64,000 nucleotides of DNA from an uncultured Verrucomicrobiae bacterium. Its GTDB lineage: Bacteria; Chlamydiota; Chlamydiia; Chlamydiales; Rhabdochlamydiaceae. Below are positions 23,845-61,911 of the stretch, one piece after another. The translations under genes and the position numbers were made by a program. The stretch spans positions 2,176,001 through 2,240,000 of the forward strand of contig OY970364.1 in the NCBI GenBank assembly GCA_963718565.1, in the 5' to 3' direction. The notes beneath the pieces are model-generated. The model saw only the letters and a program-made list of their open reading frames with translations, was not told where the DNA came from and did no database searches. The first letter of the stretch is position 1; each line of letters opens with the position of its first letter.

Positions 23845-24330
23845 TTCCCGATCATTTATGGTTATGACTCATTAGGGCGTCTTCACCGAATGGTAACAGC
23901 AGAGCTTATGACCATAACGGAGCACGATCTTTTAGATCGAGTCATCGAAGAAAGAAAAGAAGATAGACAAGGCAATGTGTTGTCGCAAATTGCGTATACT
24001 TATGACAGCTCCGGCAACAAAAAAAGCCTCACACGTTTCATCGATGGAAAAGAAGCTACGGAACATTTTGAATATGATTCCTTTAATCGCCTCATCAAAA
24101 AACAAGATCTTTTAGGAAATACCACAACCACAACCTATGATGATGAGAACCATCAACAAACCAGCATCGATCCCCTTGGTCTGGAGACCATCGAATCCTT
24201 TAACACCCACGACCTCACTCAAACAGTTGAAAAACGCTCTTCTCAAAATGAAACACTCCTATGCGAAGAAAACAGTTACGATGGCAATGATAACCTCATC
24301 GCTAAAGAAACCACTCTCCCCAACCAATGA
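23845..24330 (+). pseudogene. Internal fragment of an RHS/YD-repeat protein
   Basis: YGYDSLGR, YTYDSSGN, FEYDSFNR, TTYDDE, YDGNDN repeats; bounded by MITE sequence at both ends. Confidence 0.8.
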
Positions 24331-36304: not shown

Positions 36305-37342
36305 ATGAATGATCTCCTGTTAAAAGCACTGCGCTGCGAAAAAGTGTCTCGTCCGCCTGTTTGGTTAATGCGCCAAGCAGGGCGTTACATGCCCCAGTAT
36401 CGAGCGCTGCGCAAGCAACATTCGCTTTGGGAAATGTTCCATCACCCTGAAATCGCTGCGGACGTCACCTGTCTTCCTCTTGAGCTTTTAAAGGTGGATG
36501 CGGCCATCCTTTTCTCTGATATCCTCGTGATTGCAGAAGCGTTAGGGCTTGCGGTTCGTTTCCCTGAAGGCAAGGGACCGTATGTTGAGCCGCGGATCAC
36601 AACTCAAAGCCAAGTCGATTCCTTGAACTACATTCCCGTCGAAAAGTCATTAGATTATGTGTTCAAAACAATCATGACTGTTAAAGAAAAGATGGATGTT
36701 CCTCTCATTGGGTTTAGCGGAGGTCCATTTACAGTGGCAAGCTACTTTATCGATTCGGCAAGTCAATATGCTTTTGAGCAGACAAAGCGCTGGATCAAGA
36801 CAAGCCCTAAGACACTTCACTGCCTTCTGACAAAAATTACCGAAGCGACAATTGCTTATTTAGAGGGGCAAATTCGAGCAGGAGCGGATGTGATCCAAGT
36901 CTTTGACTCCTGGGCAAATGTTCTCAATGATGAAGAGTTTGCACTGTTTTCACTTCCCTATTTGCACCAGATTGTGAAAGCTCTTCAGCCGAGCGGCGTC
37001 CCTGTCATTCTTTTTTGCCGAAATTCTAGCCTTCGTGCAGAAGCATTGGCAGCATTGCTCCCCACAGGGATTAGCTTTGATTGGCACCTGCCGATGTGCG
37101 AACTAAGGCAAAAAGTGCCGCTTCCTATTGCTGTACAAGGAAATTTCAATCCCGAGTTTTTAAAATCGCCTCCAGAAAAAATCCGTGCAGGCGTAAAAGA
37201 ATTATTAGTCTCGATGCAAGACCAACTGGGATTCATTGTCAATCTCGGCCATGGCATTACACCAGACATTCCTTTAGAAAATGTCCGTACATTTGTCGAA
37301 GCAGTTAAAGAGGAAAAGTGCGGGAAAGAATTTATCACGTGA
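36305..37342 (+). CDS. hemE: Uroporphyrinogen decarboxylase
   Basis: PVWLMRQAGRY, AILFSDIL, IGFSGGPFTVASY, QVFDSW, NLGHG. Confidence 0.96.
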   Translation: MNDLLLKALRCEKVSRPPVWLMRQAGRYMPQYRALRKQHSLWEMFHHPEIAADVTCLPLELLKVDAAILFSDILVIAEALGLAVRFPEGKGPYVEPRITTQSQVDSLNYIPVEKSLDYVFKTIMTVKEKMDVPLIGFSGGPFTVASYFIDSASQYAFEQTKRWIKTSPKTLHCLLTKITEATIAYLEGQIRAGADVIQVFDSWANVLNDEEFALFSLPYLHQIVKALQPSGVPVILFCRNSSLRAEALAALLPTGISFDWHLPMCELRQKVPLPIAVQGNFNPEFLKSPPEKIRAGVKELLVSMQDQLGFIVNLGHGITPDIPLENVRTFVEAVKEEKCGKEFIT

Positions 37343-38289
37343 TTGGCGCCGCAACAGGATGGGGCGCCCAGATTAGGACATGCGAAGATGGCCCTGTCGT
37401 TCTCAAAGAAGCAGGGTGCTTAGAATGGCTAAAAAGTCAAAAAGTCCCCATTGAGGGCTGGGATATTCTTTATCCAAAAGAACGATTTAAAGAAAAAGAT
37501 ATTCCACTTGCAGAGTCGTTGCCATTGATCGTCGATTTCAATCAACGTTTTGCGGGTAAAGTATTTGATGTGATGCAGCGCGGATATTTTCCCATCGTTG
37601 TCGGGGGAGATCATAGCATTGCTATTGGAACGTGGAATGGCGTAGGCTGTTTTTTGTCTGATCAGAGTCCAAAGCCTTTGGGCCTGATTTGGATCGATGC
37701 GCATATGGATGCTCATACGCCTCAGACGACTCCCTCCGGAGCATGGCATGGCATGCCGCTCGCTGCGCTTTTAGGGTATGGCTTAAAGGATCTCGTAGAG
37801 ATCAAACGCCGAGCGCCCATTCTCAGCCCTCAGCGTTTGTGCCTGATCGGTGTTCGTTCGTTTGAAGAGGGTGAAGCTCAATTGCTTGAAAGTCTGAATG
37901 TGCGCATTTATTTTATGCAGGAGGTTGAGAAGCGCGGTTTTGAAACTGTTGTGCGCGAAGCAATCGACTATGTTTCCCAAGGGGCTATTGGCTATGGAGT
38001 GAGTCTGGACATCGATGTCATCGATGTTTCCGAAGTTCCAGGGACGGGCAGCCCTGTTTCTGAAGGAATAAGTTCTCGAGAACTTCTCCAATGCCTTCCT
38101 TTATTTGCCAATGATCCACGGCTTAAAGCTTTAGAGCTGGTTGAATTCAATCCTCATCTCGATATTGGAGGTAAGACACGCAAGCTTTGCCAGGAGATTC
38201 TTTACCATTTGACCAGCGGCGGCAGCGAACAAAGGACCGCATCGGGATTCCCCCCGGAAAGAAAGCCAAATTTTGTCCCGCGGTCGTAG
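37318..38289 (+). CDS. rocF: Arginase
   Basis: GGDHS, WIDAHMDAHT, SGAWHGMP, SLDIDVID, ELVEFNP. Confidence 0.88.
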   Translation: MRERIYHVIGAATGWGAQIRTCEDGPVVLKEAGCLEWLKSQKVPIEGWDILYPKERFKEKDIPLAESLPLIVDFNQRFAGKVFDVMQRGYFPIVVGGDHSIAIGTWNGVGCFLSDQSPKPLGLIWIDAHMDAHTPQTTPSGAWHGMPLAALLGYGLKDLVEIKRRAPILSPQRLCLIGVRSFEEGEAQLLESLNVRIYFMQEVEKRGFETVVREAIDYVSQGAIGYGVSLDIDVIDVSEVPGTGSPVSEGISSRELLQCLPLFANDPRLKALELVEFNPHLDIGGKTRKLCQEILYHLTSGGSEQRTASGFPPERKPNFVPRS

Positions 38290-39005
38290 AGAAGATTGAA
38301 CTCGACATAATGTGCCCGCATTTCTAGCTGCTTGTCTTTTTGGATGGGGGTAAAGGACAAGCCAACACGCCGATCATAAATGGGGAGGATTGTCTCTAGG
38401 AACGTATCGCCGACTCGCTTCCATAGCGCAAAATCCTTTTCAAAATCATCCGTGTTGTAATGGTCAAAAAAAATTCCTCCGACACCGCGCTCTTTTTGGC
38501 GATGAGGGATATAAAAATACTCTTGAGCATTCTTTGAGAAGAGGGGATAGATTTCTTTTCCGAAAGGATCGAGTGCTTTTTTAGCGACATTGTGAAAATG
38601 CAATGTGTCCTCCTCATAAAAGAATCCCATGGGAGTTAAGTCGTAGCCTCCGCCAAACCAGCTTTTGTCATCCGTTGAGATGTAACGAATATTGAAGTGA
38701 ACAGTGGGTGCATGGGGATTGAACATGTGTGTGATCAGGCTGATCCCTGTGGCAAAAAAGGGGCCCATGCCATCTGCCATCGGGAATTGATCTCCGCTCA
38801 CTCCGGACCAATTGATCGCAGCTTTTTCAAAGATCGATCCGCGCAAGACAGCCATTTCTCCGCCTCCGCCTCCTTTTTGGTATTTCCACGATGTGCGTTG
38901 AAAACGTTTTAAAGGTTCATATGCTTCAAAGGCGTTTATCATTTTTTCGCGCAGCTCTTTGAGATAAAGAACAATCTCGCCTTTTATTTTATTGCTTTGA
39001 TTCAC
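38202..39005 (-). CDS. hemF: Oxygen-dependent coproporphyrinogen III oxidase (compact form)
   Basis: FEKAAINWS, HMFNPHAPTVHFNIR, WFGGGYDLTP, ERGVGGIFFD, YVEFNLLYDRGTKFG, SLPP..W. Confidence 0.95.
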   Translation of the reverse strand: MNQSNKIKGEIVLYLKELREKMINAFEAYEPLKRFQRTSWKYQKGGGGGEMAVLRGSIFEKAAINWSGVSGDQFPMADGMGPFFATGISLITHMFNPHAPTVHFNIRYISTDDKSWFGGGYDLTPMGFFYEEDTLHFHNVAKKALDPFGKEIYPLFSKNAQEYFYIPHRQKERGVGGIFFDHYNTDDFEKDFALWKRVGDTFLETILPIYDRRVGLSFTPIQKDKQLEMRAHYVEFNLLYDRGTKFGFLSGGNPDAVLCSLPPLVKW

Positions 39006-39041
39006 TACACTACCTCAGAACAATCTTGGTCATCATCCCAT

Positions 39042-40400
39042 ATGCAGAAAAAGAAGGTCATTATCCTAGGCGCAGGAATTTCCGGCCTGTCTACAGCATG
39101 GTACTTGAGCCAAACGGGGCTACCGCTTGAGATCACCCTTCTTGAAAAAAGTTCCCGTGCTGGCGGTTGGATGCATACGGATCATACGACAGGGTTTCAT
39201 TTCGAAAAAGGACCGCGTACATTTAAAGTGGATAAAGCCCCTTCCACGATGCGCTTAATTTCTGAACTTGGGCTCCAAAACGAGGTGATCTGGTCGGAAG
39301 CAAAGCCCCATCATCGTTATCTATGGCATGAAGGAGAGCTACATCGTTTTCCCTCCAATCCTATTTCTTTTGTGTTATCTCCGATTACAAGAGGGTTTAT
39401 TCGAGCCTTGCTCACGGAATGGAAAAAGCCCATCAAAGTGGGGGATGAGACAGTTTGGGAATTTGTTCTCCGCCGTTTTAATTATGATGTCGCTCGTCTT
39501 TTTTTTGACCCCTTGGTCGTCGGCATTTTTGGAGGAGATATCCGCAAAATTTCCGTTCGCGCCTGTTTTCCCAATTTGAAACATTGGGAAGAAAAATATG
39601 GCTCTGTGACCAAAGGATTTTTTGCGCAAATGAAAGAAAAGAAAGGGCAATCTCGCTATTCTCAAGAAATGGAACAGGTCCCCTTATCTGCGATGTTTTC
39701 TTTTCGTTGCGGCATTGAACAGCTCCCCCAGACTATTGTCAATCAAATCCCAGCGACGATCTGTTACAATCAGAAAGCCAAGCAGATTGTCTTCGAAAAA
39801 GACCGTGTGATTGTTAAAACGGAAAACGAACAGTTCTCAGCAGATTTTCTTTTTTGTGCTCTTCCTGTGACAGAGGCAGGCCATCTTTTTGCACATCATG
39901 CTCCCGAGCTTTCCAAAGAACTCCTGAAAATTCCCTCAGAGGGAATCGCTGTCGTTAATTTCGGCTACGATGCCCAGGTTCTTCCTGTGCAGGGATTTGG
40001 TTATTTGACGGCGACTTATGCCAATGAGGATATTTTAGGGGTTGTCTTTGATTCTTCCATCTTTTCTGAACACAATCGTAGACCTCAAGAGACGCGGCTC
40101 ACGATCAAATTACAGGAAATGGGGCGTAGCGAGGAGAAAAACATTGATATGGCGCTTAAGGGAATCCGCCGCCATTTGGGCATTTCCCAAATGCCAAAGG
40201 CGATCTCTTTCAAATCCTCTCCGCACGCGATTCCTCAATATGGAGTCGGGCATTTAGAAAAAATGGCCGAATTGAAAAATCAATTGTGCAAAATAGTTCC
40301 GCAATGCCAATTAGTCGGCAATTACCTGGAAGGGGTGAGCGTAAACGCGTGTATTTCCCGTGCAAAAAAAGCTGTAGATGAGTTTTCAAAAATTTTCTAG
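39042..40400 (+). CDS. hemY: Protoporphyrinogen oxidase, FAD-dependent HemY type
   Basis: GAGISGL, FEKGPRTF, GFGYL, AIPQYGVGH, GNYLEGVSVNACI. Confidence 0.92.
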   Translation: MQKKKVIILGAGISGLSTAWYLSQTGLPLEITLLEKSSRAGGWMHTDHTTGFHFEKGPRTFKVDKAPSTMRLISELGLQNEVIWSEAKPHHRYLWHEGELHRFPSNPISFVLSPITRGFIRALLTEWKKPIKVGDETVWEFVLRRFNYDVARLFFDPLVVGIFGGDIRKISVRACFPNLKHWEEKYGSVTKGFFAQMKEKKGQSRYSQEMEQVPLSAMFSFRCGIEQLPQTIVNQIPATICYNQKAKQIVFEKDRVIVKTENEQFSADFLFCALPVTEAGHLFAHHAPELSKELLKIPSEGIAVVNFGYDAQVLPVQGFGYLTATYANEDILGVVFDSSIFSEHNRRPQETRLTIKLQEMGRSEEKNIDMALKGIRRHLGISQMPKAISFKSSPHAIPQYGVGHLEKMAELKNQLCKIVPQCQLVGNYLEGVSVNACISRAKKAVDEFSKIF

Positions 40401-44991: not shown

Positions 44992-45711
44992 ATGAATCCA
45001 GTTGAAGAGCTAATCGTTCGCATTCCTGCGATCGAGGAAAAAATTAAATACACATTTAAGAATAAGCAATTGCTTATCCTTTCTTTTGTTCATCGTTCTT
45101 TTTTCAATGAACATCGCGACCTTGTCCAGCAGCATAATGAACGGCTTGAATTTCTTGGAGATTCGGTGTTGGGATTGATGATCTCAGACTATCTTTATGC
45201 GCAGCTGCCCACGGAACCAGAAGGATTTCTTTCCCATTTGCGCTCCCATATCGTCGAAGCGAGTAGTTGTGCAGCTCTCCTCAATCAGCTCGGTATTGGG
45301 CAATCTGTGTTGTTGGGAAGAGGGGAGCGCATGAACGATGGCCGTGGCCGCGAGACAATTTTAGCTGATCTCTTCGAAGCTTTGATTGGAGCGATCTATC
45401 TCGATTCAGGGATTGAATCTGCAAAGAAATTTTTCTTTTTTCATTTTTCTCAGCAAATCGAAGAACATTTGAGAAAGCCACTCAGAAATTGGAAGGCGGA
45501 ACTGCAGGATTATTCGCAAAAAAAATACCAAAAGCCACCTGCGTATAAAATTCTCAAGGAATCTGGACCTGATCATAGCAAAATGTTTCACGTGATCGCT
45601 TATGTTGACGACAAAGAAGCGGGAGAAGGCACAGGATCCTCAAAAAAAGAAGCAGAGCAAGCTGCAGCAGAAGATGCCCTAAAAAAACTGGGAGTCATGC
45701 AAAATGCCTAA
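44992..45711 (+). CDS. rnc: Ribonuclease III
   Basis: NERLEFLGDSVL, ADLFEALIGAIYLD, dsRBD with GSSKKEAEQAAA. Confidence 0.97.
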   Translation: MNPVEELIVRIPAIEEKIKYTFKNKQLLILSFVHRSFFNEHRDLVQQHNERLEFLGDSVLGLMISDYLYAQLPTEPEGFLSHLRSHIVEASSCAALLNQLGIGQSVLLGRGERMNDGRGRETILADLFEALIGAIYLDSGIESAKKFFFFHFSQQIEEHLRKPLRNWKAELQDYSQKKYQKPPAYKILKESGPDHSKMFHVIAYVDDKEAGEGTGSSKKEAEQAAAEDALKKLGVMQNA

Positions 45712-47074
45712 ACAAAAAGTGCTTTGGAGTTGCTGCGAATGCGGTCATCGACAGGCGAAATGGACAGGGAGTTGCACAGTCTGCCAAAAATGGAATACTT
45801 TTGAGCAAGAGATCGAGGTTGAGGATAAAGGAAAGCGCTTTGAATCGCTCAAAAATGAATCGGCAAAGCCGATGCGGGTCAAAGAAGTTACCGTGAATGA
45901 ATTTCGTCGGATCTCGACTAAAATGCCAGAATTCGACAGACTTCTTGGGGGGGGAATTGTCCCGGGTTCTTTGACATTGATCGGGGGAGATCCTGGGATT
46001 GGTAAATCGACGTTAATGCTGCAGCTTGCCCAAGCTCTTGCAGAGCAAGGACTGACAATCCTCTATGTCTGCGGAGAGGAATCTGTGGAACAGACATCGA
46101 TGCGTGCAAGCCGTCTGGGGGCTGGCGACGACCGCCTTTATTTGCTCAGCGATACTCTTTTCTCAAATATCAAAGCGCAAATTGATCATCTCAAGCCTGA
46201 CGCCATGATCGTCGATTCGATCCAGATTCTTTACAAAAGCGAACTGCCTTCAGCGCCGGGTTCTGTGAGCCAAGTCCGAGAATTAGCGACCGAATTTATG
46301 CATATTGCTAAAGGAATAGGGATCGCCACGTTCTTGATTGGTCACGTGACAAAATCAGGTGAGATCGCGGGTCCACGCGTTCTCGAACACATTGTCGATA
46401 CCGTTCTCGACTTCGAAGGCGACCGTCAGCATGGCTATCGCTTGTTGCGATCCGTAAAAAATCGTTTTGGACCGACCGATGATATCGCGCTCTTTCAAAT
46501 GGGAAGCCAAGGGCTTTCCGAAGTGAGCAATCCTTCTATCATTTTTTTAGAAGAGCGACTCAAAGAGGTGTCTGGGTCTGTGATCATTCCGACCGTCGAA
46601 GGATCCCGTGCACTTTTAATCGAGGTCCAAGCGCTTGTTGCGACGTCAGCTTTTTCTACTTCAACACGCAAGTCGACCGGCCTTGACCAGAACCGACTAG
46701 CACTCTTGCTTGCTGTTTTGGAAAAAAAGATGGGATATCAGCTTCATCATTGCGATGTGTTTGTCTCCGTTGCAGGAGGGCTTAAAATTTTTGAACCCGC
46801 GATTGATCTCGGTGTCCTCATGGCAATCGGGTCTTCATTTTGCAATCGTCCGATCGATCCCGAAACAGTCATTCTTGGCGAAGTAGGCCTCAGTGGTGAA
46901 GTGCGCGGCGTCCCGCGTATTGAAAGCCGCATGCGCGAGGCGATCCACATGGGTTTTCGGCGCTGTGTATGTCCTAAGCGCAATTTAAAAGGGATCTCTT
47001 CTGATCTTTCCCAAAAGATTTCTCTCATCGGCGTCGAAGTTGTCGAGGAGGCCATTCGTGAATTACTCCATTGA
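45704..47074 (+). CDS. radA: DNA repair protein RadA/Sms
   Basis: C4 zinc finger, GGDPGIGKST, KNRFG, GEVGLSGEVR. Confidence 0.97.
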   Translation: MPKQKVLWSCCECGHRQAKWTGSCTVCQKWNTFEQEIEVEDKGKRFESLKNESAKPMRVKEVTVNEFRRISTKMPEFDRLLGGGIVPGSLTLIGGDPGIGKSTLMLQLAQALAEQGLTILYVCGEESVEQTSMRASRLGAGDDRLYLLSDTLFSNIKAQIDHLKPDAMIVDSIQILYKSELPSAPGSVSQVRELATEFMHIAKGIGIATFLIGHVTKSGEIAGPRVLEHIVDTVLDFEGDRQHGYRLLRSVKNRFGPTDDIALFQMGSQGLSEVSNPSIIFLEERLKEVSGSVIIPTVEGSRALLIEVQALVATSAFSTSTRKSTGLDQNRLALLLAVLEKKMGYQLHHCDVFVSVAGGLKIFEPAIDLGVLMAIGSSFCNRPIDPETVILGEVGLSGEVRGVPRIESRMREAIHMGFRRCVCPKRNLKGISSDLSQKISLIGVEVVEEAIRELLH

Positions 47075-47729
47075 ACTGACGGTCGGGGCGCGGAACTCTC
47101 CTCTTTCACAGGCGCAATGCGAGGAAGTGTTACAAGAATTGAGGCAGTGCCATCCGCATGTGGTGTTTCAATGCGTTTGGGTGGAAACAACGGGTGACAA
47201 AGACTTAAAAACCTCACTTCGAACACTGGAAAAGACCGATTTTTTTACGAAAGAGATCGATGCTCTTCAACTCGCAGGCAGTTGTCGCATTAGCATTCAT
47301 TCTGCAAAAGATTTGCCTGACCCTTTGCCAAAAGGATTAAAACTTGTTGCGCTCACTCAAGGAGTCGATCCTTCGGATTCGATTGTGCTGCGCGGGCCTC
47401 ATACAACTCTCGAGAGTTTGCCATTTGGGGCCACAATCGGGACATCGAGTATGCGACGCGAAAAAAATATCCATGATTTACGCTCAGACCTTGTTTGTGT
47501 CGATGTCCGCGGGGCAATTCATACCAGACTGGCCCTTTTAGATCAGGGCATTGTCGATGGGCTGGTCATAGCCGAGGCAGCTTTGATCCGACTAAAACTG
47601 ACACATTGCACGCGCATCCCGCTTTCCGGAGAGTGCGCCCCTTTGCAAGGACAGCTCGCGATTATTGCTCTGGAAAATGATCAAGAGATGAGAGAACTTT
47701 TTCACTGTATGGATGTGAGGAGAGGATGA
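47058..47729 (+). CDS. hemC: Hydroxymethylbilane synthase (short chlamydial form)
   Basis: GARNSPLS, TTGDKD, FFTKEID, HSAKD, GTSS.RR; GTG start chosen. Confidence 0.9.
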   Translation: MNYSIELTVGARNSPLSQAQCEEVLQELRQCHPHVVFQCVWVETTGDKDLKTSLRTLEKTDFFTKEIDALQLAGSCRISIHSAKDLPDPLPKGLKLVALTQGVDPSDSIVLRGPHTTLESLPFGATIGTSSMRREKNIHDLRSDLVCVDVRGAIHTRLALLDQGIVDGLVIAEAALIRLKLTHCTRIPLSGECAPLQGQLAIIALENDQEMRELFHCMDVRRG

Positions 47730-48403
47730 AAACGATTTTATATCTTGGAACAGACCCTACGATGTTTGAAAACCAAGGCCATGCCAAGGGCCATCTCATT
47801 CATTATCCGGTGATAAAGATTATTCCGCGACCTTTGGAACATCCCGAGGTCAAACAAGCTTATGCTGAGCTTCATGCGTTTACGCACCTGATCTTTACAA
47901 GTAAAAACGCCGTGAATGTTTTCTTTCAACACTGTGCAGATTTAAAACAGTCCCTAGAAGCTTTAAAGGCAAAAACCGTGATCGCAATCGGCACAGTGAC
48001 GGCCTTACATCTTTCCATGCGAGGCTTTGCGCCTCAGCTGGTCGCGAAAAATGAGACACAAGAAGGCGTTATAGAATTGTTAACTCCGATGTCTTTAAAG
48101 AATGCTTATTTTTTTATGCCGCGCTCCTCATTATCGCGTCCTCTCCTTGCGAAGTTTTTTCAAGAAGGAAGCATTTGTTTTCAGGCCTGCGACCTTTATG
48201 ATACAGTGACGCAAACCTTGGAACCCAAACCTGATTTAGATAGGGTTGATGAAATCATATTTACTAGTCCTTCAACGGTCAATGCGTTTATCGCTATTTT
48301 TGGAAGCTTGCCCAACAACAAAAAACTGATTGCGATCGGCCTCGTCACTGAGCAAGCTTTAAAGACTCAAGTAGGAAGGGATATCGCATCAAACTTTCTT
48401 TGA
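47726..48403 (+). CDS. hemD: Uroporphyrinogen-III synthase
   Basis: IFTSKNAV, AIG..TA, LYDT, IFTSPSTV; coupled to hemC. Confidence 0.88.
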   Translation: MKTILYLGTDPTMFENQGHAKGHLIHYPVIKIIPRPLEHPEVKQAYAELHAFTHLIFTSKNAVNVFFQHCADLKQSLEALKAKTVIAIGTVTALHLSMRGFAPQLVAKNETQEGVIELLTPMSLKNAYFFMPRSSLSRPLLAKFFQEGSICFQACDLYDTVTQTLEPKPDLDRVDEIIFTSPSTVNAFIAIFGSLPNNKKLIAIGLVTEQALKTQVGRDIASNFL

Positions 48404-54759: not shown

Positions 54760-55392
54760 ATGGTCGACATCAGTAAATTCAAGGAAGAGGAAGCAGAAGG
54801 ATATCGCGTCGATATTATCGGCAGAAATATTCAAGTCACTGAACCGATCCGCATGTATGTCTGGGACAAGTTGTCTAAAATCGAACGGTTCCACAATCAC
54901 ATTATGCACTTGCACATGACGCTTGAAATTCAAAAGCTTGAGCATGTCTGCACCATTGTCCTCAAGATCGACCATACTGAAGTGAAATGCCAATCTAAAA
55001 GTACGGACATGTATGCTTCGATTGACAAGGCAATTGATCGTTTGCACTCTCTTTTAGCGCGTTATAAGAGTCGCCTTCAAGATCACCATCGGAAGAAATC
55101 GTCTGTCATCGACGTCCAAGTGAATGTTTTGCACCGGCCCTATAATGAAGTTGATGAGATCAATGCGGCAATCGAAGAGGTAAATGCTCAATCTAAGATT
55201 GAAGCTTTTGGTCCGCTAAAAATTATCGGTACGGAGACTAAGCCCCTTAAGACATTGACCATCGATGAAGCTGTGATGAAGATGGATCTTTCTGGAGATT
55301 CATTTTTAATTTTCCGTGCCGAAGAAGATATGAAACTGAAAGTTCTCTATCGTAGGAAAGATGGGAATTATGGGCTCATCCAGCCCGAATAG
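54760..55392 (+). CDS. hpf: Ribosome hibernation factor, long HPF/RaiA
   Basis: GRNIQVTE, DMYASID, EAVMKM..F.IF..VLYRRKDGNYGLI. Confidence 0.92.
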   Translation: MVDISKFKEEEAEGYRVDIIGRNIQVTEPIRMYVWDKLSKIERFHNHIMHLHMTLEIQKLEHVCTIVLKIDHTEVKCQSKSTDMYASIDKAIDRLHSLLARYKSRLQDHHRKKSSVIDVQVNVLHRPYNEVDEINAAIEEVNAQSKIEAFGPLKIIGTETKPLKTLTIDEAVMKMDLSGDSFLIFRAEEDMKLKVLYRRKDGNYGLIQPE

Positions 55393-55855
55393 CTCCCTTG
55401 TCTTCGATGAGGTGCGCCTTTGCTGGGTAAAGGCAACCCCTGAAGAACGAGTTCGTCAGCGTTGGCTAAAATGGATGATCCATGGACTTCACTACCCCAA
55501 AGAACTTTTAGTTGTAGAAAAAGGACTCAAGGAACTTCCCCATCTCCACGGAAAAAATGTTCCAGAGCGCAGGCTTGACATTCTATGTTACGGAAAAGGG
55601 ATCCATCCCTCCTTTCCGCTGTATCCTTTGGTGATGATCGAGTGCAAGAAGGACGGACGACTAACCGATGAAGCAGTCGATCAAGTGATCGGTTATAATC
55701 ACTATGTTAAAGCCTATTTTATTGCTATTGTGAACCTTGAGGAAGTAAGATTTGGTTGTTTTCAAACGAATGAGAAGGAATATCAATTTTATTCTGTTCT
55801 TCCCTCATTTAAGGAGTTAATGCAGTGGGTCAAGCCCTCATCAGCGATCTTTTAA
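55361..55855 (+). CDS. Stand-alone HsdR N-terminal-like PD-(D/E)xK domain protein
   Basis: TPEERVRQ, YPKE..VEK, RLDI, IECK, Q...YN. Confidence 0.75.
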   Translation: MGIMGSSSPNSSLVFDEVRLCWVKATPEERVRQRWLKWMIHGLHYPKELLVVEKGLKELPHLHGKNVPERRLDILCYGKGIHPSFPLYPLVMIECKKDGRLTDEAVDQVIGYNHYVKAYFIAIVNLEEVRFGCFQTNEKEYQFYSVLPSFKELMQWVKPSSAIF

Positions 55856-57387
55856 TTCCAGACTTGAAATTCATCGATCTCAAATCAAACCTTGAAGAGA
55901 TCGATGTTTTGTTTATTTTTGGCGTCGGCGATGGCTCTTTGCCTCATTATCTTTCGGCATGGTTAAAAAAAAAGGACAATCGTTTCATCGTTTTCATTGA
56001 AGAAGAGGAAGAACTTTTTTTAAGGGCAAAAGAGCTTACAGTAAAGAATGGTCCCAAAGTCCGCCTTTTTTATTGGAAAAGAGACGATGAAGAGATTTTT
56101 CAACATATTGCTTGGGAATTTATTTTTTTACGCTTTGGATACATCCTTCCAGAACCCCATTATAAACAAGCAGCCAAAGACTTTTTTATCCCATTAGAGC
56201 ATTACCATCGCGGGGTGGATTTGCTGGCATCAGATAGCGAGGACATGGGAGTCAAAGTGCTAAAGAATGCCATGAAGAATTTATCAGCACTCCCTAAAGC
56301 GCGCCTTGGCTCCTCTCTTGAAGGGAAGTGTACACACATCCCAGCCATTGTGTGCGGAGCGGGCTCCACACTTGATCAAGCGGCGCCGCTACTGGCTAAA
56401 ATGAGAGACAACGCGCTGATTATCGCTGGCGGATCGAGCGCTGCCGCCCTCAATGCGCATGGAATCGTCCCTCATATTTTTGCTAGCATTGATCCCCATC
56501 CTCCTTATCGGCGTTTTTTAGAGCAGGACTGCTTCGAGGTGCCCTTTTTCTATCAGGGCCGATTTTGCTACTCTTTATTGGAAAGGGTCCAAGGACCTTT
56601 GATTGTCATGTCCGATAGCGGCAACTATCCTTTAGAGGCTTGGGCTTCAGCTGAAGCCGGTATTTTCGCAGAGCGATTCGATGGAGGATGGACTGTGGCT
56701 AACTTTTGCACGTCGATTGCCGCCCATTTGGGCTGCAATCCCATTATTTTTGTCGGGATGGACTTTTCCTGCGGACCCGATGAAATGTATGCCTCGAAAA
56801 TCGGAGGCGATGAAAACCGAGGGTGTTTGGTCGAGTTGGAAAAAGGCAAGCTTTATTCTAAACGCGATTGGTTAATGAGCGCTGAATGGACAGTCTCGTT
56901 TGCCAAGAAGAATCCGCACATTCATTGGATCCATGCTTCTACAGGTGGCATCGATCTTCCGGGAATCGAACGCAGAGAACTTTCCGAGGTCGCGATGTCT
57001 TTGCTTGAAACGCCATTTGATATGGCGGGGATCGTCCATTCGCTCGTTTCCAATGCCGCACCTTCTCAAGTCGCTTCCGAAAAAGTCGAGAATGTGAGAA
57101 AGAAAGTAAAAGCGAGCTTTGAAAAATGCCTTGAGGTTTGTGAGGGAATGCTCAAAGTGTGGGAAAAGTATTATCCAAATTCTCCTCTAGAGAAAGGAGA
57201 GTATGCTGTTTTGGACATTGAACTTGAACAAGAGGTTTGTCATCATCATTTTCTCCTTCCCCTTTGGAATGTGTGGAAACATCCCATTGTGCGATCTTCG
57301 TTTCACCCACTGGGTGCCCATATCCACAGATTACTCTTTTTTAAGAAGGCTGTCGAAATGCATTTACCCTACTTGAGGTCATTGTGA
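55825..57387 (+). CDS. DUF115/Maf-like (MptE-like) glycosyltransferase-domain protein
   Basis: PAIVCGAGSTL, IIAGGS, GIVPH..SIDP, TVAN..HLGCNPIIFVGMDFS. Confidence 0.8.
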   Translation: MGQALISDLLIPDLKFIDLKSNLEEIDVLFIFGVGDGSLPHYLSAWLKKKDNRFIVFIEEEEELFLRAKELTVKNGPKVRLFYWKRDDEEIFQHIAWEFIFLRFGYILPEPHYKQAAKDFFIPLEHYHRGVDLLASDSEDMGVKVLKNAMKNLSALPKARLGSSLEGKCTHIPAIVCGAGSTLDQAAPLLAKMRDNALIIAGGSSAAALNAHGIVPHIFASIDPHPPYRRFLEQDCFEVPFFYQGRFCYSLLERVQGPLIVMSDSGNYPLEAWASAEAGIFAERFDGGWTVANFCTSIAAHLGCNPIIFVGMDFSCGPDEMYASKIGGDENRGCLVELEKGKLYSKRDWLMSAEWTVSFAKKNPHIHWIHASTGGIDLPGIERRELSEVAMSLLETPFDMAGIVHSLVSNAAPSQVASEKVENVRKKVKASFEKCLEVCEGMLKVWEKYYPNSPLEKGEYAVLDIELEQEVCHHHFLLPLWNVWKHPIVRSSFHPLGAHIHRLLFFKKAVEMHLPYLRSL

Positions 57388-58109
57388 TGAACTTCACGGA
57401 CAAGGATCAATATCTCTTTTCTAAAGATGAGCTGATTATTCGCGATCATGAGCTCAATATTGCGATTACTTTTCCCTCTTTTCTTCCTCGGCTTCCGCTT
57501 GAGATGTCAGGACAGGGTGTCGTTCAAGATCGGGACCAAGAGGGCAACCTTCAGTCCGTATATCTTGTTTGCGATGGAAGGCGTCATGGAGAGTGCCGTC
57601 TTTTTGCTGAAGGGAATAAACTCTGCGCTGAAATGTTCTATCTTCACGGCAAGCTGCACGGCCCTTCTATCCTGTATTCTGAACAGGGCAAAATCCTTGC
57701 AAAAACATGGTACTGCGAAGGAAAACGCGTCGGCAAAGCTCATTACTATTTCCTCTCGGGCTTGCTCTCGAGTTTACAGCGATTTAAAGAGGGAGAGTGG
57801 GAAGGATTGCAAGAATACTTTTATGAAGATGGGTCCAAGAAAAGTTTGATTCCTTTCTTTCATGGAAAACTCCACGGTGAGGTCCAGCTGTTTTGGGAGT
57901 CCGGCAAACCCAAACGCTCTGTGCATTATGTAGAGGGGCTTCGCGAGGGGCCGGACAAATTATGGAATGAAAAAGGCATTTTAATCGATGAAGGAGAATA
58001 CCGGTCAGGGCTGCCTGTGGGTATTCACCGCCATTATTTTGCCGACGGCAAACTGAAAGAAGAGTCGAATTTCCATGGGAAATATACCGCGCACAGGAAG
58101 GTTTTGTGA
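57384..58109 (+). CDS. MORN-variant repeat protein (YwqK-like)
   Basis: Repeated Y..GK.HG / F.EG..EG units; last 8 codons derive from the MITE insertion. Confidence 0.85.
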   Translation: MMNFTDKDQYLFSKDELIIRDHELNIAITFPSFLPRLPLEMSGQGVVQDRDQEGNLQSVYLVCDGRRHGECRLFAEGNKLCAEMFYLHGKLHGPSILYSEQGKILAKTWYCEGKRVGKAHYYFLSGLLSSLQRFKEGEWEGLQEYFYEDGSKKSLIPFFHGKLHGEVQLFWESGKPKRSVHYVEGLREGPDKLWNEKGILIDEGEYRSGLPVGIHRHYFADGKLKEESNFHGKYTAHRKVL

Positions 58110-58307
58110 ATTTGGACTCAGCGAGGCAAAGCACAATCGAAGCTTGCGGTCCGAATGACGAAGCCATAGTGAAAACTATGGCTGCGGAGACACGAGAAGG
58201 TCTAGTAGACCTTCGCAGTGCAGAGCAGGTGAGCGAAGCGAACTGGGAGGATTGATTGTGCAAAGCCGCAGCCAGTCCAAATTCACAAAACCTTCCTGTG
58301 CGCGGTA
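58085..58307. mobile_element. MITE, TACYG-ended family (223 bp)
   Basis: Perfect 34-bp TIR TACCGCGCACAGGAAGGTTTTGTGAATTTGGACT; TA duplication; nested hairpins. Confidence 0.92.
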
Positions 58308-60114
58308 TAACATCCAGGATCACGTTCATTTATTAGAACGTTATCCTGAACTGGTTTTCTTATTGAGTTACACGCCATATATTCCTTATCCCCTCATCAC
58401 CAGTGTAGATCACAAGCTGAGCGCTGAAGAACTCCATTCCGGTTCTATTTCACAAGAGATTGCGGACTTTAAAACAAAACTGCATTTAGAGGGCGTCGAT
58501 ATTCTCTATGTCTATGGCCTTGGGCTTGGATATCATTATGCTGCATTAAAAGGGTGGCTAAAGGAAAAACGAGAAAGGCGTCTGATTTTCCTTGAGGATG
58601 AACTGGCCGCTGTCTATGCCCTGCTCTCTTCGGAACACGCGCAGGATCTCTTCTACGATCCCCAAGTCGTCGTGCGTTTCATTCCCGATCCTAAACGACT
58701 TCAAGAGCATTTAGAAGAACTTACAGCTTCTTATTCTTGCGATCGCATCGAAGTGGCAGCAATTGCATCCTACCAGAAGAAAAAAAAGCGCCGCTTTCTT
58801 CAGATCCGCCTAAAATTGCTTAGACTTTCCGCTGTCCATCACGCCATCCTCACCGAAGCGCTTTACTCTCATAAGATGCTTGTCAATCTCTTGCGCAATA
58901 TTCGACGCTGGCCAGGTTCATTCCTCGCTGGAGGTCTCAAAGGGAAATTTTGTGGCATCCCTGCAGTGGTCTGTGGCGCGGGCCCTTCGCTTCAAGCAAG
59001 TTTGCCGCACCTAAAAAAAATAGAGGACCGCGCCTTGATCATCGCCGGCGGTTCGACAATTGCTGCTTTAAGCAATCAAGGGATTCAACCTCATCTTGGA
59101 ATTGCTTTGGACCCTAATGCCGAAGAGTTCGGTAGATTGAAAATTGCCTCAGCTTATGAAATGCCTTTGATTTATGCCACACGCCTTCAACCCGATGTCT
59201 TCAACGCCTTGAACGGGGAACGAGGCTACCTCGTTTCAGACACTGGCGGATCGTGTGAACGTTACTTTGAAAGACAGATGGAAATCGAAGAAGAGCCCGT
59301 AGGTCCAGAGTTAGGGTCGGAAGCGCTTTCTGTCACCACGCTTGCCATTGCGCTTGCAGTGGAAATGGGCTGCCATCCTCTCTTCTTGAACGGGATTGAT
59401 CTCGCGTACACCGGAACACAGCGCTATGCAGAGGGGATTCTGCCCTCCTCGCACATCGACATATCTGAAAAGCGCCGTGAGAAAAAATCACCGGAGCGTC
59501 TGCTCAAGCGCAAGGACATCCGTGGCCATTATGTGCATACGCTTGTCAAATGGGTGATGGAGTCCGAATGCATTGCCGCTTATGCCAAAGCTCATCCAGA
59601 GACAGGTTTTATCAATGTCTCCGAAGGAGGAATCGGATTTCCCGGGATTCCCAACGTGCCGCTCCTCGAAGCCGCACAAGGGCTCAACCAACAGCTTGAC
59701 CTGCGCGCTCTTCTCCATGCGGAAATCCAGAAACTCAAAATCCCTCTTTCCAAAGAAAAGATCTTTCGCGAGATGAAGGAGGTGGGTGAAAGTTTGCTCC
59801 GCCTGGGCAGCATTGCGGAAGAAATGCTCGAGGAGCTAGAAAGAGTAAAACATCTGTTTCCCTTTGGGCAGCTGGTTCTTCCTACAGGAAAAATGACGAT
59901 CCTCGAGATCGATTTTCAAGAGGAAAAAGCTTTTGAATGCCTGTTTCCCTCTTTGGGGCCAGCTCTTGATAAACTCTTAGAGCGCGCCTTCTATGTTCCT
60001 GCCCACTGTACAGAAGAACAGCAGCGGCACATCTCTTTAGAATGCAAGATTGCAAAATGGCGGCAATGGAAAGAGATTATCGATAGCGAAATTGGCCTCT
60101 TTCAGATGCATTAA
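58258..60114 (+). CDS. Second DUF115/Maf-like protein; native ATG 58075 displaced by the MITE, likely new GTG start
   Basis: YGLGLGYH, PAVVCGAGPSL, IIAGGS, LDPN, SVTT..MGCHP..GIDLAY, INVSEGG. Confidence 0.8.
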   Translation: MQSRSQSKFTKPSCARYNIQDHVHLLERYPELVFLLSYTPYIPYPLITSVDHKLSAEELHSGSISQEIADFKTKLHLEGVDILYVYGLGLGYHYAALKGWLKEKRERRLIFLEDELAAVYALLSSEHAQDLFYDPQVVVRFIPDPKRLQEHLEELTASYSCDRIEVAAIASYQKKKKRRFLQIRLKLLRLSAVHHAILTEALYSHKMLVNLLRNIRRWPGSFLAGGLKGKFCGIPAVVCGAGPSLQASLPHLKKIEDRALIIAGGSTIAALSNQGIQPHLGIALDPNAEEFGRLKIASAYEMPLIYATRLQPDVFNALNGERGYLVSDTGGSCERYFERQMEIEEEPVGPELGSEALSVTTLAIALAVEMGCHPLFLNGIDLAYTGTQRYAEGILPSSHIDISEKRREKKSPERLLKRKDIRGHYVHTLVKWVMESECIAAYAKAHPETGFINVSEGGIGFPGIPNVPLLEAAQGLNQQLDLRALLHAEIQKLKIPLSKEKIFREMKEVGESLLRLGSIAEEMLEELERVKHLFPFGQLVLPTGKMTILEIDFQEEKAFECLFPSLGPALDKLLERAFYVPAHCTEEQQRHISLECKIAKWRQWKEIIDSEIGLFQMH

Positions 60115-60246: not shown

Positions 60247-61911
60247 ATGGCCACTATCACCGGAATGAAAACTGTTTTTCAATTAGCAGTTGACATGACA
60301 CACAATGCAATGGATGTCGCCTATTTGCATCGCGCAATTTCAGAATGCGAAATTATGGCTCATGAAAATCCAACGCAAGAATCTCTTATCGATCGGCTTA
60401 TTGACATCTTCAATATGATCAGTCGTCGAAGAGAAAGATTGGAATCCATGAATAGAGAAATCTCCTCGCTACGAGATGTTCTCCCTTCTTATTTTAGGCA
60501 TCCATTTGAGACCATTGTGATGCCTTCTTTTCACAACGCGAAAGAGATTGCTTTTAGCTTGGTAAAGCCCATCGTTGATGCTCAACATCAATTGATCGTA
60601 GAACAGTTCCAAATGGCTATTGAGAAGTTAAATGCGTTTCGAAAAAATCCGTTAAAAAGAAATTTACTGTCAGAAGTGGAATGTAAAAATCTCATTCTTT
60701 TTGATCGGATTAAAAATATCCAAGAATTGGGAACTCGCTGTCGCGTGCTTACTCAAAACGATACGGAGAGAATGGATGAACTCGCAAGCAGAAGTATTCG
60801 TCTTTCTAAGATCCTCGCGCTCCAACAGCCCCGTAAAATAGGATATCTTTTTGCATGTCTGGATCAACTCATTGAAGATCCCTCTCAATTTAGTTCTGAC
60901 TTTATCACAGGATTTTATGCTCAATTCGATGGGATCATCAATAATATGTCAAAGGAATCTATTGAGGAACTCGATGACATGATCCTTAAGCATGAATCCA
61001 CCCTTGACAATCTAGAGGGAAAAATGCATCGCTACGATGATCTTGCTTTTTTCAAACAAGCGATAACGACTGTCATTCGTAATCAGTTTGAAAGGATAGT
61101 TGCAGATGAAATCCCTCCGGAACAGCTCAATGAGTTTTATCAAATGCTATTTGAGGAGGCATTTGGTCCTAAAGATGAAGACTCCCAAAATTGGGCTAGA
61201 GCGGAACTTCCCTCTCTCTCAAGCATTGTGAGTAAAACTTTTCAAAGATTTGTGTTTAAAAAAATAGGCGTTGAAGTATGCGACTCATCTTCTTCCGAGT
61301 TCTCTGAAGATGAGGATAAAGCTTTAGACCCTTTGGGGATCACAAACAACAATGCTCTCACCTCAACGGCAAACAGTCTTTCTCCCAAAGTCGAGCAACT
61401 CAACCTTTTGCTCCAAAAGATCAGCCTCGTTTTTGAGGAATCTTCTGTTTCTGAAGGATACGACTCATCTTCTTCCGAGTTCTCTGAGAATACTAAAAAT
61501 GAGAATAAAACCTTTTTAGGTCCTTTGAGGGTAACGTGCAACAGTATTCTTGCCTTAACGGCCAACAATCCTTTCCCTGAAGTCGGACGACTCAACCTTT
61601 TGCTCAAAAAGATTAATATTATAGAAGAATTAGCTGAATCCGGCCCAAATTTTAGGGGAAGGATCGATAGAGATACCGTCAAACGAGTTATCGTTGGAAC
61701 GCTTTCTAGCAAGATGCTCGGATCTTTATATGGAATGATTGCTTATCTTGCGCCTGACGACTATGAAGGCAAAGGAGGATGGGGTGAAAAACATTGTGCA
61801 GATGACATTAGCCGTTTACGTCGTGCAATCTCCTATCTGAAGGATCCGAATCTTCTTTTTCCGAGACCTCACTTGAAGACGAGGATAAGGTTTCAGGGTG
61901 CTCCGATATAA
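60247..61911 (+). CDS. Hypothetical protein, candidate effector with internal repeats
   Basis: 554-aa ORF with GGGGG SD; duplicated DSSSSEFSE...LNLLL.KI block. Confidence 0.7.
   Translation: MATITGMKTVFQLAVDMTHNAMDVAYLHRAISECEIMAHENPTQESLIDRLIDIFNMISRRRERLESMNREISSLRDVLPSYFRHPFETIVMPSFHNAKEIAFSLVKPIVDAQHQLIVEQFQMAIEKLNAFRKNPLKRNLLSEVECKNLILFDRIKNIQELGTRCRVLTQNDTERMDELASRSIRLSKILALQQPRKIGYLFACLDQLIEDPSQFSSDFITGFYAQFDGIINNMSKESIEELDDMILKHESTLDNLEGKMHRYDDLAFFKQAITTVIRNQFERIVADEIPPEQLNEFYQMLFEEAFGPKDEDSQNWARAELPSLSSIVSKTFQRFVFKKIGVEVCDSSSSEFSEDEDKALDPLGITNNNALTSTANSLSPKVEQLNLLLQKISLVFEESSVSEGYDSSSSEFSENTKNENKTFLGPLRVTCNSILALTANNPFPEVGRLNLLLKKINIIEELAESGPNFRGRIDRDTVKRVIVGTLSSKMLGSLYGMIAYLAPDDYEGKGGWGEKHCADDISRLRRAISYLKDPNLLFPRPHLKTRIRFQGAPI

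What the first reader, a model, noticed from the sequence alone, without database searches (positions are those of the whole stretch)
58071..58320. MITE lands in a stop/start overlap and supplies a new stop plus an in-frame SD and start
Seen: the empty site rebuilds as TTC CAT GGG AAA TAA (MORN stop) overlapping ATG GGA AAT AAC ATC CAG GAT CAC (Maf start). The insertion adds 225 nt, exactly 75 codons. It gives the upstream gene a new TGA (58107-58109) and carries GGAGG-7nt-GTG (58258) in frame with the downstream gene. From the old ATG the frame has a single stop (TGA 58156), followed 3 nt later by a stem-loop. Inference: a self-mitigating insertion that leaves both genes translatable, one substitution away from an RPE-style in-frame peptide insert.
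Basis: partly seen in the sequence, partly recalled or inferred. Interest (0 to 1): 0.75.

Follow-up and report, generated by a model that had tools for sequence, protein, structure and literature searches.

The report
MITE plus deletion remodels a gene overlap
A small palindromic mobile element sits in the stop codon of one gene, where that gene used to overlap the next, and a neighbouring 156-base deletion removed the next gene's original start, so that gene can now begin only at a start signal inside the element.

Summary
The sequence facts hold. A 223-nt palindromic element (58085-58307) is flanked by TA on both sides, so 225 nt were added. It has 33-nt exact terminal inverted repeats. It gives the upstream MORN/YwqK-like ORF a new TGA (58107-09). 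It carries GGAGG-7 nt-GTG (58258) in frame with the downstream MptE-like/DUF115 ("Maf") gene. Relatives of the element occur in two other genomes, so it is MITE-like.

The proposed ancestral site is wrong. None of 119 Maf orthologs starts MGN; the closest start MEPAFVGNN. All 35 best MORN orthologs carry about 52 more C-terminal residues. In 16 of 16 ortholog pairs the two genes overlap, mostly by 26 nt. The window therefore also has a 156-nt deletion ending 6-8 nt left of the element. It removed the MORN tail and the native Maf start. ATG 58075 is a by-product of the deletion junction.

The element did land in the MORN stop codon inside the old overlap. The GTG and most of its SD are paired in a -131 kcal/mol hairpin. 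Translation would need ribosomes to open that hairpin. A 49-codon bridging ORF (58106-58255) could do this, but that is inferred. This is an ordinary kind of event with an instructive twist.

The parts
55825..57387 (+). Upstream MptE-like/DUF115 paralog. Its stop TGA 57385-87 overlaps the MORN start (GTG 57384 or ATG 57387).
   Evidence: Pfam PF01973, E = 1.4e-35; junction sequence; ORF list.
57384..58109 (+). MORN_2 / YwqK-like ORF, truncated. Native sequence runs to about 58082. The last 9 codons (58083-58109, stop included) come from the TA duplicate plus the element's left terminal repeat.
   Evidence: Pfam PF07661, E = 6.4e-17. The alignment to 14 orthologs ends at ..NFH, and the orthologs go on for 54 more residues.
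58074..58079 (+). Junction of a 156-nt (52-codon) lineage-specific deletion. ATG 58075-77 is formed here.
   Evidence: Window ..NFH-GK versus orthologs ..NFH-(52 aa)-WK. The missing tail is not found elsewhere in the window: best tblastn E = 2.2.
58083..58084 (.). Left TA of the target-site duplication.
   Evidence: Sequence. TA/TA also flanks the L028 copy, and CA/TA flanks the L038 copy.
58085..58307 (.). 223-nt palindromic MITE-like element. It is inverted relative to the copies in L028 and L038.
58085..58117 (+). Left terminal inverted repeat. It contains AGGAAGG-4 nt-GTGA, that is, the new MORN stop TGA 58107-09 overlapping GTG 58106-08.
58106..58255 (+). 49-codon ORF in the third frame. 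It bridges from the new MORN stop to 2 nt before GTG 58258 and is a possible translational relay. No family match.
   Evidence: ORF list; no Pfam hit. The role is inferred.
58156..58158 (+). The only stop in the frame that runs from ATG 58075 into the downstream gene.
   Evidence: Translation.
58159..58186 (+). Small internal hairpin of the element.
   Evidence: Inverted repeat I4, 12-nt arms, 92% complementary; fold.
58246..58260 (+). GGAGG (58246-50), 7 nt, then GTG (58258-60): the element-borne SD and start. The GTG pairs with 58132-34 in the hairpin.
58275..58307 (-). Right terminal inverted repeat. Read outward on the + strand it encodes ..SKFTKPSCARY, part of the new N-terminus.
58308..58309 (.). 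Right TA of the target-site duplication.
58258..60114 (+). Downstream MptE-like/DUF115 ('Maf') gene as it can now be read. 17 element-coded residues replace the native first 8.
   Evidence: Pfam PF01973, E = 3.1e-33. 429 homologs; own entry P0001 of 618 aa.

Best explanation
A TA-targeting, non-coding palindromic mobile element (MITE-like, 223 nt) is inserted in the TAA stop codon of a MORN/YwqK-like gene. In all sampled relatives that stop lies inside codons 8-9 of the next gene, an MptE-like/DUF115 'Maf' gene, and the two genes overlap, mostly by 26 nt.

In the same lineage a 156-nt deletion ends 6-8 nt to the left of the element. It removed the last 52 codons of the MORN gene and, with them, the native start and first six codons of the Maf gene. 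These two steps are shown.

Consequences read directly from the sequence:
- MORN now ends 8 element-coded codons later, at a TGA inside the left terminal repeat.
- The Maf frame has no native start.
- ATG 58075 is an accident of the deletion junction and runs into TGA 58156.
- The only SD-led in-frame start is GTG 58258 inside the element. It swaps the native MEPAFVGN for 17 element-coded residues.

Inferred mechanism: Maf is still made from GTG 58258. That start and most of its SD are locked in the element's long hairpin, so initiation depends on ribosomes that unwind the left arm. The most likely route is termination-reinitiation at the GTGA overlap (58106-09), then translation of the 49-codon bridging ORF, then release at TGA 58253-55, 2 nt before the GTG. 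This would re-create the translational coupling that the operon uses at its other junctions.

My odds: structural and evolutionary part about 0.9; Maf translated from GTG 58258 at all about 0.45; relay through the bridging ORF as the route about 0.25. The single confidence figure given (0.5) weighs the shown structural part together with the inferred claim that Maf is still translated.
For: Element:
- Exact termini, with 0 of 100 shuffles matching, and fold z = -15.3.
- Relatives with the same termini in L028 (1865-2024, TA/TA) and L038 (1856-2024, CA/TA), plus a remnant in L016.
- Translated relatives P0216, P0217 and P0219 among 6 hits in 1.84 billion representatives.

Ancestral overlap:
- 16 of 16 MORN/Maf ortholog pairs can be encoded by one DNA in two frames. 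The overlap is 26 nt in 10 pairs, 23 nt in 3 and 56 nt in 3.
- Shuffled N-termini did so in 0 of 240 and 0 of 400 trials.

Deletion:
- The alignment stops at ..NFH, and 35 of the 35 best MORN orthologs carry the C-terminal VRKGxW-type motif that the window lacks.
- The missing tail is absent elsewhere in the window.

Native start:
- None of 119 orthologs starts MGN. The nearest relatives (85-87% identity) start MEPAFVGNN.

New start:
- GGAGG-7 nt-GTG is in frame.
- The only other in-frame ATG/GTG/TTG between TGA 58156 and the right junction is TTG 58252, 1 nt after the GGAGG. In the first ~60 native codons I saw one in-frame start codon, a TTG without an SD (my reading).
- A gene caller chose the same GTG for the window's own database entry, P0001.
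- The operon's other junctions overlap, and the upstream paralog also appears to use AAGGAG-8 nt-GTG.

Coupling:
- P(unpaired) of the GTG is 0.0 when the RNA is free, and also with the RNA held open up to 58122.
- It rises to about 0.25 (SD 0.03-0.86) once the left arm is held open up to 58160.

Gene state:
- Maf is intact over about 600 codons and no more diverged from relatives than they are from each other.
- N-terminal leaders of orthologs vary from 0 to more than 60 residues before the LLERYPE block, so a swapped leader is plausibly tolerated.
Against: - There are no expression data of any kind.
- The start codon sits in a very stable duplex.
- The genome encodes RNase III (44992-45711). 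Long MITE duplexes are known RNase III substrates in Neisseria (passages of PMC10969869). A cut in the terminal stem would fall downstream of GTG 58258 and detach it from the gene body.
- MORN has lost 52 conserved residues, which suits a decaying locus as well as an adapted one.
- The bridging ORF being open has roughly a 10% chance expectation ((61/64)^49, my arithmetic), and it was noticed post hoc.
- The SD is not conserved in the family: L028 has AGAAGA and L038 has GAGGAT at that place.
- Only one copy lies in the 64-kb window, and the host genome was not found in the genome collection. Copy number, the defining property of a MITE, is therefore unknown for this genome.
- The order of insertion and deletion is unknown.
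Confidence: 0.5

Rival explanations
1. Young double knock-out. The insertion plus the deletion have in effect inactivated both genes. MORN is truncated. Maf is untranslated because its only start is buried in the hairpin and the mRNA is cut by RNase III. The intact Maf ORF merely reflects how recent the events are.
For: - GTG 58258 has P(unpaired) = 0.0.
- The terminal stem is perfect, which suggests a recent insertion.
- 52 conserved MORN residues are lost.
- An RNase III gene is present.
- The native Maf start is gone.
- The genome is rich in insertion sequences (IS3, IS256, IS4 and Tn5-like genes at 6.5-19 kb).
Against: - There are no stops or frameshifts in about 600 Maf codons, and no excess divergence in Maf or in the retained part of MORN.
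- A strong SD at ideal spacing occurs in only 2.4% of shuffles.
- A continuous chain of overlapping or adjacent ORFs could deliver ribosomes to the GTG.
Confidence: 0.3
2. One reading: a clean insertion into an existing short overlap whose start was ATG 58075 (protein MGNNIQDH..). This could be true only as the immediate pre-insertion state, if the deletion came first and the junction ATG had already taken over as the start.
For: - Removing 58085-58309 does leave an ATG in frame with the Maf gene and overlapping the MORN stop.
- The deletion is a multiple of 3, so both frames survive it.
Against: - None of 119 orthologs starts MGN, and the conserved start lies six codons upstream.
- The overlap in relatives is 23-56 nt.
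- Only a weak purine run precedes ATG 58075.
- Nothing shows which event came first.
Confidence: 0.12
3. Read-through or recoding. Translation starts at ATG 58075 and passes TGA 58156, helped by the hairpin 3 nt downstream. The result is Maf with a 75-residue element-coded insert, as in Rickettsia palindromic elements (RPEs).
For: There is a single in-frame stop followed by a 9-bp hairpin.
Against: - TGA is used as an ordinary stop by the neighbouring gene (57385-87).
- No Rfam family, including SECIS elements, matches the window at gathering thresholds.
- ATG 58075 is not a native start.
Confidence: 0.03
4. Assembly artefact: the palindrome and the adjacent deletion were created by misassembly.
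For: Long palindromes are hard to assemble, and I could not see reads.
Against: - The clean TA/TA borders are the same as in the independent copy in L028.
- The flanks are colinear with ortholog proteins on both sides.
- The protein database holds the same 618-aa protein from a 2.28-Mb contig.
Confidence: 0.02

Closest known systems
QMITE1/QMITE2 of Coxiella burnetii (PMC5896051; passages read)
   Same: Small palindromic MITEs that overlap the 3' ends of functional genes by 1-50 bp. They supply the last residues and/or the stop codon. The authors raise RNase III processing of the stable stem as a possible consequence.
   Different: That paper reports only 3'-end effects; 'start codon' and 'N-termin' have 0 occurrences in it. 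Here the same element also supplies the SD, the start and 17 N-terminal residues of the next gene. It lies in a gene-gene overlap and is accompanied by a deletion. There is no sequence relationship.
Rickettsia palindromic elements (RPEs), as summarised in PMC10969869 (passages read)
   Same: A palindromic element of about 150-225 nt whose length is a multiple of 3 and which has an open frame. On the minus strand the window copy is open over all 75 codons. In the opposite orientation it would have been an in-frame insert.
   Different: In its actual orientation the frame is broken by TGA 58156, so it is not an in-frame peptide insert. The translated relatives found (P0216, P0217, P0219, P0222) lie in ORFs with no Pfam domain, so no RPE-like habit is shown for this family.
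Correia elements of Neisseria (PMC10969869, passages read; that they duplicate TA is recalled, not checked)
   Same: A MITE of about 100-230 nt with long terminal inverted repeats, co-transcribed with neighbouring genes. Its hairpin is cut by RNase III and it carries outward-facing promoter-like hexamers. Here a TTCACA-18 nt-TATATT match lies on the minus strand at the left junction.
   Different: No sequence similarity was tested or seen. Correia effects are described at the level of transcription and RNA stability, not as donors of SD and start. The copy number here is unknown.
Translational coupling at overlapping stop/start signals (NTGA; termination-reinitiation); established knowledge, recalled
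   Same: The new MORN stop overlaps a GTG (GTGA) preceded by AGGAAGG. The bridging ORF ends 2 nt before GTG 58258, with the GGAGG just upstream. The native junctions of this operon overlap in the same way.
   Different: Here the signals are supplied by a mobile element, and whether they are used is untested.

Membership tests
MITE (miniature inverted-repeat transposable element) | Small (under about 500 bp) and without a transposase gene | tested here: met
   223 nt. The only internal ORFs are 49 codons (+) and a read-through frame (-), with no Pfam match.
MITE (miniature inverted-repeat transposable element) | Terminal inverted repeats | tested here: met
   33 nt exact, and a 36-bp uninterrupted stem when the TA is included.
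MITE (miniature inverted-repeat transposable element) | Target-site duplication | tested here: met
   TA/TA in the window and in L028; CA/TA in L038. That is 2 of 3 DNA copies exact.
MITE (miniature inverted-repeat transposable element) | Several to many copies within one genome | not testable with these tools
   - There is one copy in the 64-kb window.
- The host genome was not hit in genome contigs.
- Family members were seen in 2 other assemblies: 3 real loci among 39, the rest being 18-24-nt matches I take as chance.
- A few translated copies were found.
MITE (miniature inverted-repeat transposable element) | A related autonomous insertion sequence with the same termini | tested here: not met
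   No second occurrence of the termini in the window. The transposases present are IS3, IS256, IS4 and Tn5-like types. The rest of the genome was not seen.
IS630/Tc1-mariner-derived MITEs | TA target duplicated, and termini matching an IS630-family element | tested here: inconclusive
   The TA duplication is met. The termini were not compared with any IS630 element, and no such transposase lies in the window. The link between TA and IS630 is recalled.
RPE-type in-frame peptide insert | The element is read through as part of the host protein | tested here: not met
   TGA 58156 interrupts the frame from ATG 58075. That ATG is not the native start.
Translationally coupled gene pair | Stop of the upstream ORF overlapping or next to the start of the downstream ORF, with an SD in the upstream coding region | tested here: met
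   At the sequence level only: GTGA at 58106-09; TGA 58253-55 followed by GTG 58258; GGAGG at 58246-50. Use by ribosomes is not testable here.
MptE-like / DUF115 'motility accessory factor' family (downstream gene) | Pfam PF01973 domain above the gathering score | tested here: met
   115.4 bits against a cut-off of 34.6, covering profile positions 2-170 of 171.
MORN_2 / YwqK-like family (upstream gene) | PF07661 repeats and full ortholog length | tested here: inconclusive
   The repeats are present: 60.1 bits against a cut-off of 29.6. The protein lacks the last 52 residues that 35 of the 35 best orthologs have.

The most novel reading that the evidence does not exclude
The element family is built to be tolerated inside operons.
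- Its terminal repeat carries a ready-made coupling junction (AGGAAGG-4 nt-GTGA), which stops one incoming frame and restarts another.
- One arm carries an outward-facing purine-rich SD plus an NTG start 51 nt from the end. The start is GTG in the window and TTG at the same place in L028. The SD position reads GGAGGA, GAGGAT or AGAAGA in the three copies.
- One strand is fully open.
An insertion in either orientation would then keep the downstream gene translatable, which would make this a MITE that avoids polar effects by design.
Probability: 0.07. Interest if true: 0.7.

Novelty: new member of a known kind. Interest (0 to 1): 0.36.

Why it matters
- It is a concrete case in which a mobile element replaces both the stop of one gene and the SD, start and N-terminus of the next, at a junction that was translationally coupled. 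The reviewed MITE literature describes 3'-end overlaps, in-frame fusions, promoters and RNase III sites (passages of PMC10969869 and PMC5896051). It does not describe donated start signals in the passages I read.
- It shows how an 'empty site' rebuilt from one genome can mislead. Comparison with orthologs revealed a hidden adjacent deletion and a start codon that is only a junction by-product.
- I found no description of a MITE family in Chlamydiota. Searches gave no relevant paper. The census paper PMC11602168 has 0 occurrences of 'Chlamydi' in its main text; its supplements were not read.
- If the relay through the 49-codon ORF works, it would be a natural example of hairpin-gated reinitiation created in one step by transposition.

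Tried and rejected
- **Other copies in the window:** none with up to 3 mismatches in the 33-nt terminus.
- **Rfam:** no family matches at gathering thresholds in the whole window, so there is no known RNA, SECIS element or riboswitch.
- **Genome-collection scan with an 18-nt piece of the terminus:** 39 loci.
  - Only L028, L038 and L016 are real relatives.
  - L034 lies in an unrelated G+C-rich stretch that reads like coding sequence.
  - L005 and the rest match over only 18-22 nt, and I take them as chance.
  - The window's own genome did not appear, so copies could not be counted and the test of whether copies sit in frame more often than chance could not be run.
- **Third protein search with the element's 76-codon minus-strand frame:** only P0219 and P0222.
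- **Exhaustive representative search:** 6 hits. P0220 and P0221 are unrelated repeat proteins. P0218 matches only in part.
- **Pfam on the element-bearing proteins:** no domains, so there is no evidence of insertions inside real genes. My first impression that the L028 copy interrupts an RHS-type gene got no Pfam support and is dropped.
- **Missing MORN tail moved elsewhere:** rejected, best tblastn E = 2.2.
- **Faster evolution of the window's Maf or MORN:** not seen.
- **Intrinsic terminator in or after the element:** none found.
- **Outward promoter on the + strand:** the right junction gives TTCACA-18 nt-TATAAC, which fails the scan's rule (my reading). It would in any case start downstream of the GTG.
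- **TGA read as an amino acid:** rejected, because TGA ends the neighbouring gene.
- **Ortholog DNA:** The deletion breakpoints and the order of the two events stay open.
Full report
**1. What is there**

The stretch 58085-58307 is a 223-nt palindromic element.
- Its outer 33 nt are exact inverted repeats. They are the only two matches in the 64-kb window even with 3 mismatches allowed, and 0 of 100 shuffles gave two or more matches.
- Complementarity continues inward: 71-nt arms at 79%.
- As RNA the region folds at -131.3 kcal/mol, z = -15.3 against 200 shuffles.
- TA lies on both sides (58083-84 and 58308-09), so 225 nt, or 75 codons, were added.
- No Rfam family matches anywhere in the window.

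Upstream lies a MORN_2 (YwqK-like) ORF, 57384-58109. Downstream lies an MptE-like/DUF115 ORF that sources name 'motility associated factor glycosyltransferase family' in relatives. A second DUF115 paralog (55825-57387) precedes the MORN gene.

The junctions of this gene string overlap. TGA 57385-87 overlaps the MORN start. The paralog's start, GTG 55825, lies 31 nt inside the preceding HSDR_N_2-like ORF and follows AAGGAG by 8 nt.

Homolog names place the organism in Chlamydiota, near Rhabdochlamydiaceae.

**2.
- The MORN frame ends at TGA 58107-09.
- GGAGG 58246-50 lies 7 nt before GTG 58258, in the downstream frame.
- The frame from ATG 58075 has one stop, TGA 58156-58.
- A hairpin follows that stop.
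- The database copy of the window's own protein, P0001, has 618 residues and starts MQSRSQSKFTKPSCARYNIQDH. A gene caller therefore also chose GTG 58258.

**3. It belongs to a family of elements**

One genome-collection scan with an 18-nt piece of the terminus gave 39 loci. A comparison with the whole element showed that three are real relatives.
- L028 (titled 'MAG: bacterium isolate ZJ1.bin9'): element 1865-2024, flanked by TA/TA.
- L038 (titled 'Verrucomicrobia bacterium isolate SZAS-9'): element 1856-2024, flanked by CA/TA.
- L016, from the same assembly as L038: a short remnant.
- The other 36 loci match over only 18-24 nt, and I take them as chance.

The copies are 160-169 nt long. The window copy has about 60 extra central bases. 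It aligns better when reverse-complemented (113 invariant columns of 242, against 89 of 240). The family therefore has polarity, and the window copy is inverted relative to the other two.

An exhaustive search of 1.84 billion representative proteins with the element's open minus-strand frame found 6 hits. P0216, P0217 and P0219 carry the same end peptides, IPR..RF.EFGL and ..AESKFTKPSCARY. Their ORFs have no Pfam domain.

The host genome itself did not turn up in the collection, so its copy number is unknown. No IS630-like transposase lies in the window. IS3, IS256, IS4 and Tn5-like genes lie at 6.5-19 kb.

**4. The rebuilt 'empty site' is not the ancestral site**
- None of 119 Maf orthologs starts MGN. 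55 start M-x4-[VAGSC]-G, and 8 more have that motif behind an annotated extension.
- The nearest relatives (P0002-P0004, 85-87% identical) start MEPAFVGNN(I/V)(H/Q), where the window has ..GNNIQDH. The native start therefore lay six codons upstream of the GNN.
- The MORN orthologs are 279-288 residues long, against 241 here.
- The alignment shows that the window follows them up to ..KLKEESNFH and then has only GK. The orthologs continue for 54 residues, TPTRFDR ... VRKG.WDG....WK. 35 of the 35 best hits have that tail motif.
- The missing tail is nowhere else in the window.
The overlap is 26 nt in 10 pairs, 23 nt in 3 and 56 nt in 3. Shuffled N-termini never allowed this: 0 of 240 and 0 of 400.

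In relatives, therefore, the MORN stop lies across Maf codons 8-9. The element's TA target is the TA of that stop.

The window also carries a 156-nt (52-codon) deletion whose right end is 6-8 nt left of the element. It removed the MORN tail and the native Maf start together with its first six codons. ATG 58075 is made of the CAT of ..NFH plus the next G. It is a junction by-product.

**5. Consequences**

MORN now reads ..NFH-GK plus 8 element-coded residues. A stop that soon arises in 32% of shuffles.

For Maf:
- The only in-frame ATG/GTG/TTG codons between TGA 58156 and the right junction are TTG 58252, 1 nt after the GGAGG, and GTG 58258, at 7 nt.
- Further downstream, in the first ~60 native codons, I saw one in-frame start codon, a TTG without an SD (my reading).
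- A start with a 5-nt SD core arises in 2.4% of 20,000 shuffles, and with a core of 4 nt or more in 11%.
- In the opposite orientation the same frame would have been open over all 75 codons.

In the predicted RNA the GTG pairs with 58132-34, and four of the six SD-region bases scored (58245-50) are paired. P(unpaired) of the GTG is 0.0. It stays 0.0 if a ribosome stopping at 58107-09 holds the RNA open up to 58122. It rises to about 0.25 once the left arm is open up to 58160.

Two short ORFs could open the left arm.
- ATG 58075 to TGA 58156, 27 codons.
- GTG 58106 to TGA 58255, 49 codons. This one starts in a GTGA overlap with the new MORN stop, behind AGGAAGG, and ends 2 nt before GTG 58258.

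This chain would restore the coupling typical of the operon. It is an inference, found post hoc.

**6. Is the locus alive?**

For:
- Maf is intact, and neither Maf nor the retained part of MORN is more diverged from relatives than the relatives are from each other.
- Annotated ortholog leaders before the LLERYPE block vary from 0 to more than 60 residues.

Against:
- The start codon is buried in the hairpin.
- A conserved MORN tail is lost.
- An RNase III gene lies in the window. MITE duplexes are RNase III substrates in Neisseria (passages of PMC10969869). A cut in the terminal stem would separate GTG 58258 from the gene body.

The data cannot separate 'still expressed' from 'recently silenced'.

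**7. Comparison with known cases**
- MITEs that overlap gene 3' ends and donate residues or the stop codon are described for Coxiella (PMC5896051, passages).
- In-frame fusions, RPEs, promoters and RNase III processing are described in the review PMC10969869 (passages).
- In those passages I found no case of a MITE donating SD, start and N-terminus to the next gene.
- Searches found no description of a chlamydial MITE or of this locus.
- The census paper PMC11602168 has no 'Chlamydi' in its main text. Its supplements were not read.

**8. Verdict**

The element did land in a stop codon within a gene overlap and does provide the new stop and the only usable start. But the ancestral junction was different, an adjacent deletion was missed, and 'both genes remain translatable' is unproven. 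The event is of a known kind, with modest novelty.

Noticed in passing
window 6512-12724 and 18453-18950: A cluster of transposase genes: IS3-type orfA/orfB (7333-7623 and 6512-7246, minus strand), an IS256/Mutator type (8685-9845), a DDE_Tnp_1 type (10898-12724) and a Tn5-like DNA-binding fragment (18453-18950). The genome is rich in insertion sequences, but none of these is an obvious partner for a TA-targeting element.
   Followed up: partly
window 55361-60114: A string of four + strand genes whose junctions overlap, or ancestrally overlapped: HSDR_N_2-like, DUF115, MORN and DUF115. The first DUF115 starts 31 nt inside the HSDR_N_2-like ORF. The MORN-DUF115 pairing with overlap is conserved in 16 of 16 ortholog pairs. 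The function of this DUF115-MORN module in chlamydiae is unknown to me.
   Followed up: partly
window 58081-58110, minus strand: A promoter-like match (TTCACA, 18 nt, TATATT; 10 of 12) formed by the left terminal repeat plus the TA and flank. It points outward, antisense into the MORN gene. The region holds 1 such site, against 1.6 expected from shuffles, so this is not evidence of function.
   Followed up: no
window 57784-58329, minus strand: A 181-codon ORF antisense to the MORN 3' end runs through the whole element without a stop. It is probably not a gene, but it shows that one strand of the element is fully open.
   Followed up: partly
window 44992-45711: An RNase III gene (Ribonuclease_3 plus dsrm domains). 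It is relevant because the element's 36-bp perfect duplex is a plausible substrate.
   Followed up: no
window 60247-61911: A 554-residue ORF with no Pfam match. It contains an internal duplication: two stretches of ..SSSSEFSE.. followed by ..LLL(Q/K)KI...
   Followed up: no
window 36305-40400 and 47040-48403: Haem biosynthesis genes in two groups. The first holds uroporphyrinogen decarboxylase, coproporphyrinogen oxidase and an amine-oxidase-type (protoporphyrinogen oxidase-like) gene. The second holds porphobilinogen deaminase and uroporphyrinogen-III synthase.
   Followed up: no
window 23890-24330: A short ORF with a single RHS-repeat match, possibly a fragment of a larger RHS/YD gene.
   Followed up: no
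L028 1865-2024 and L038 1856-2024: - The two related copies have unequal termini. The left end reads ..CGCGCTCCGTC(A/G)GG.. and the right end is the complement of ..CGCGCACAGGAAGG... In the window copy both ends are of the second kind.
- The L038 copy sits between a terminator-like hairpin and a 2Fe-2S ferredoxin gene.
   Followed up: partly
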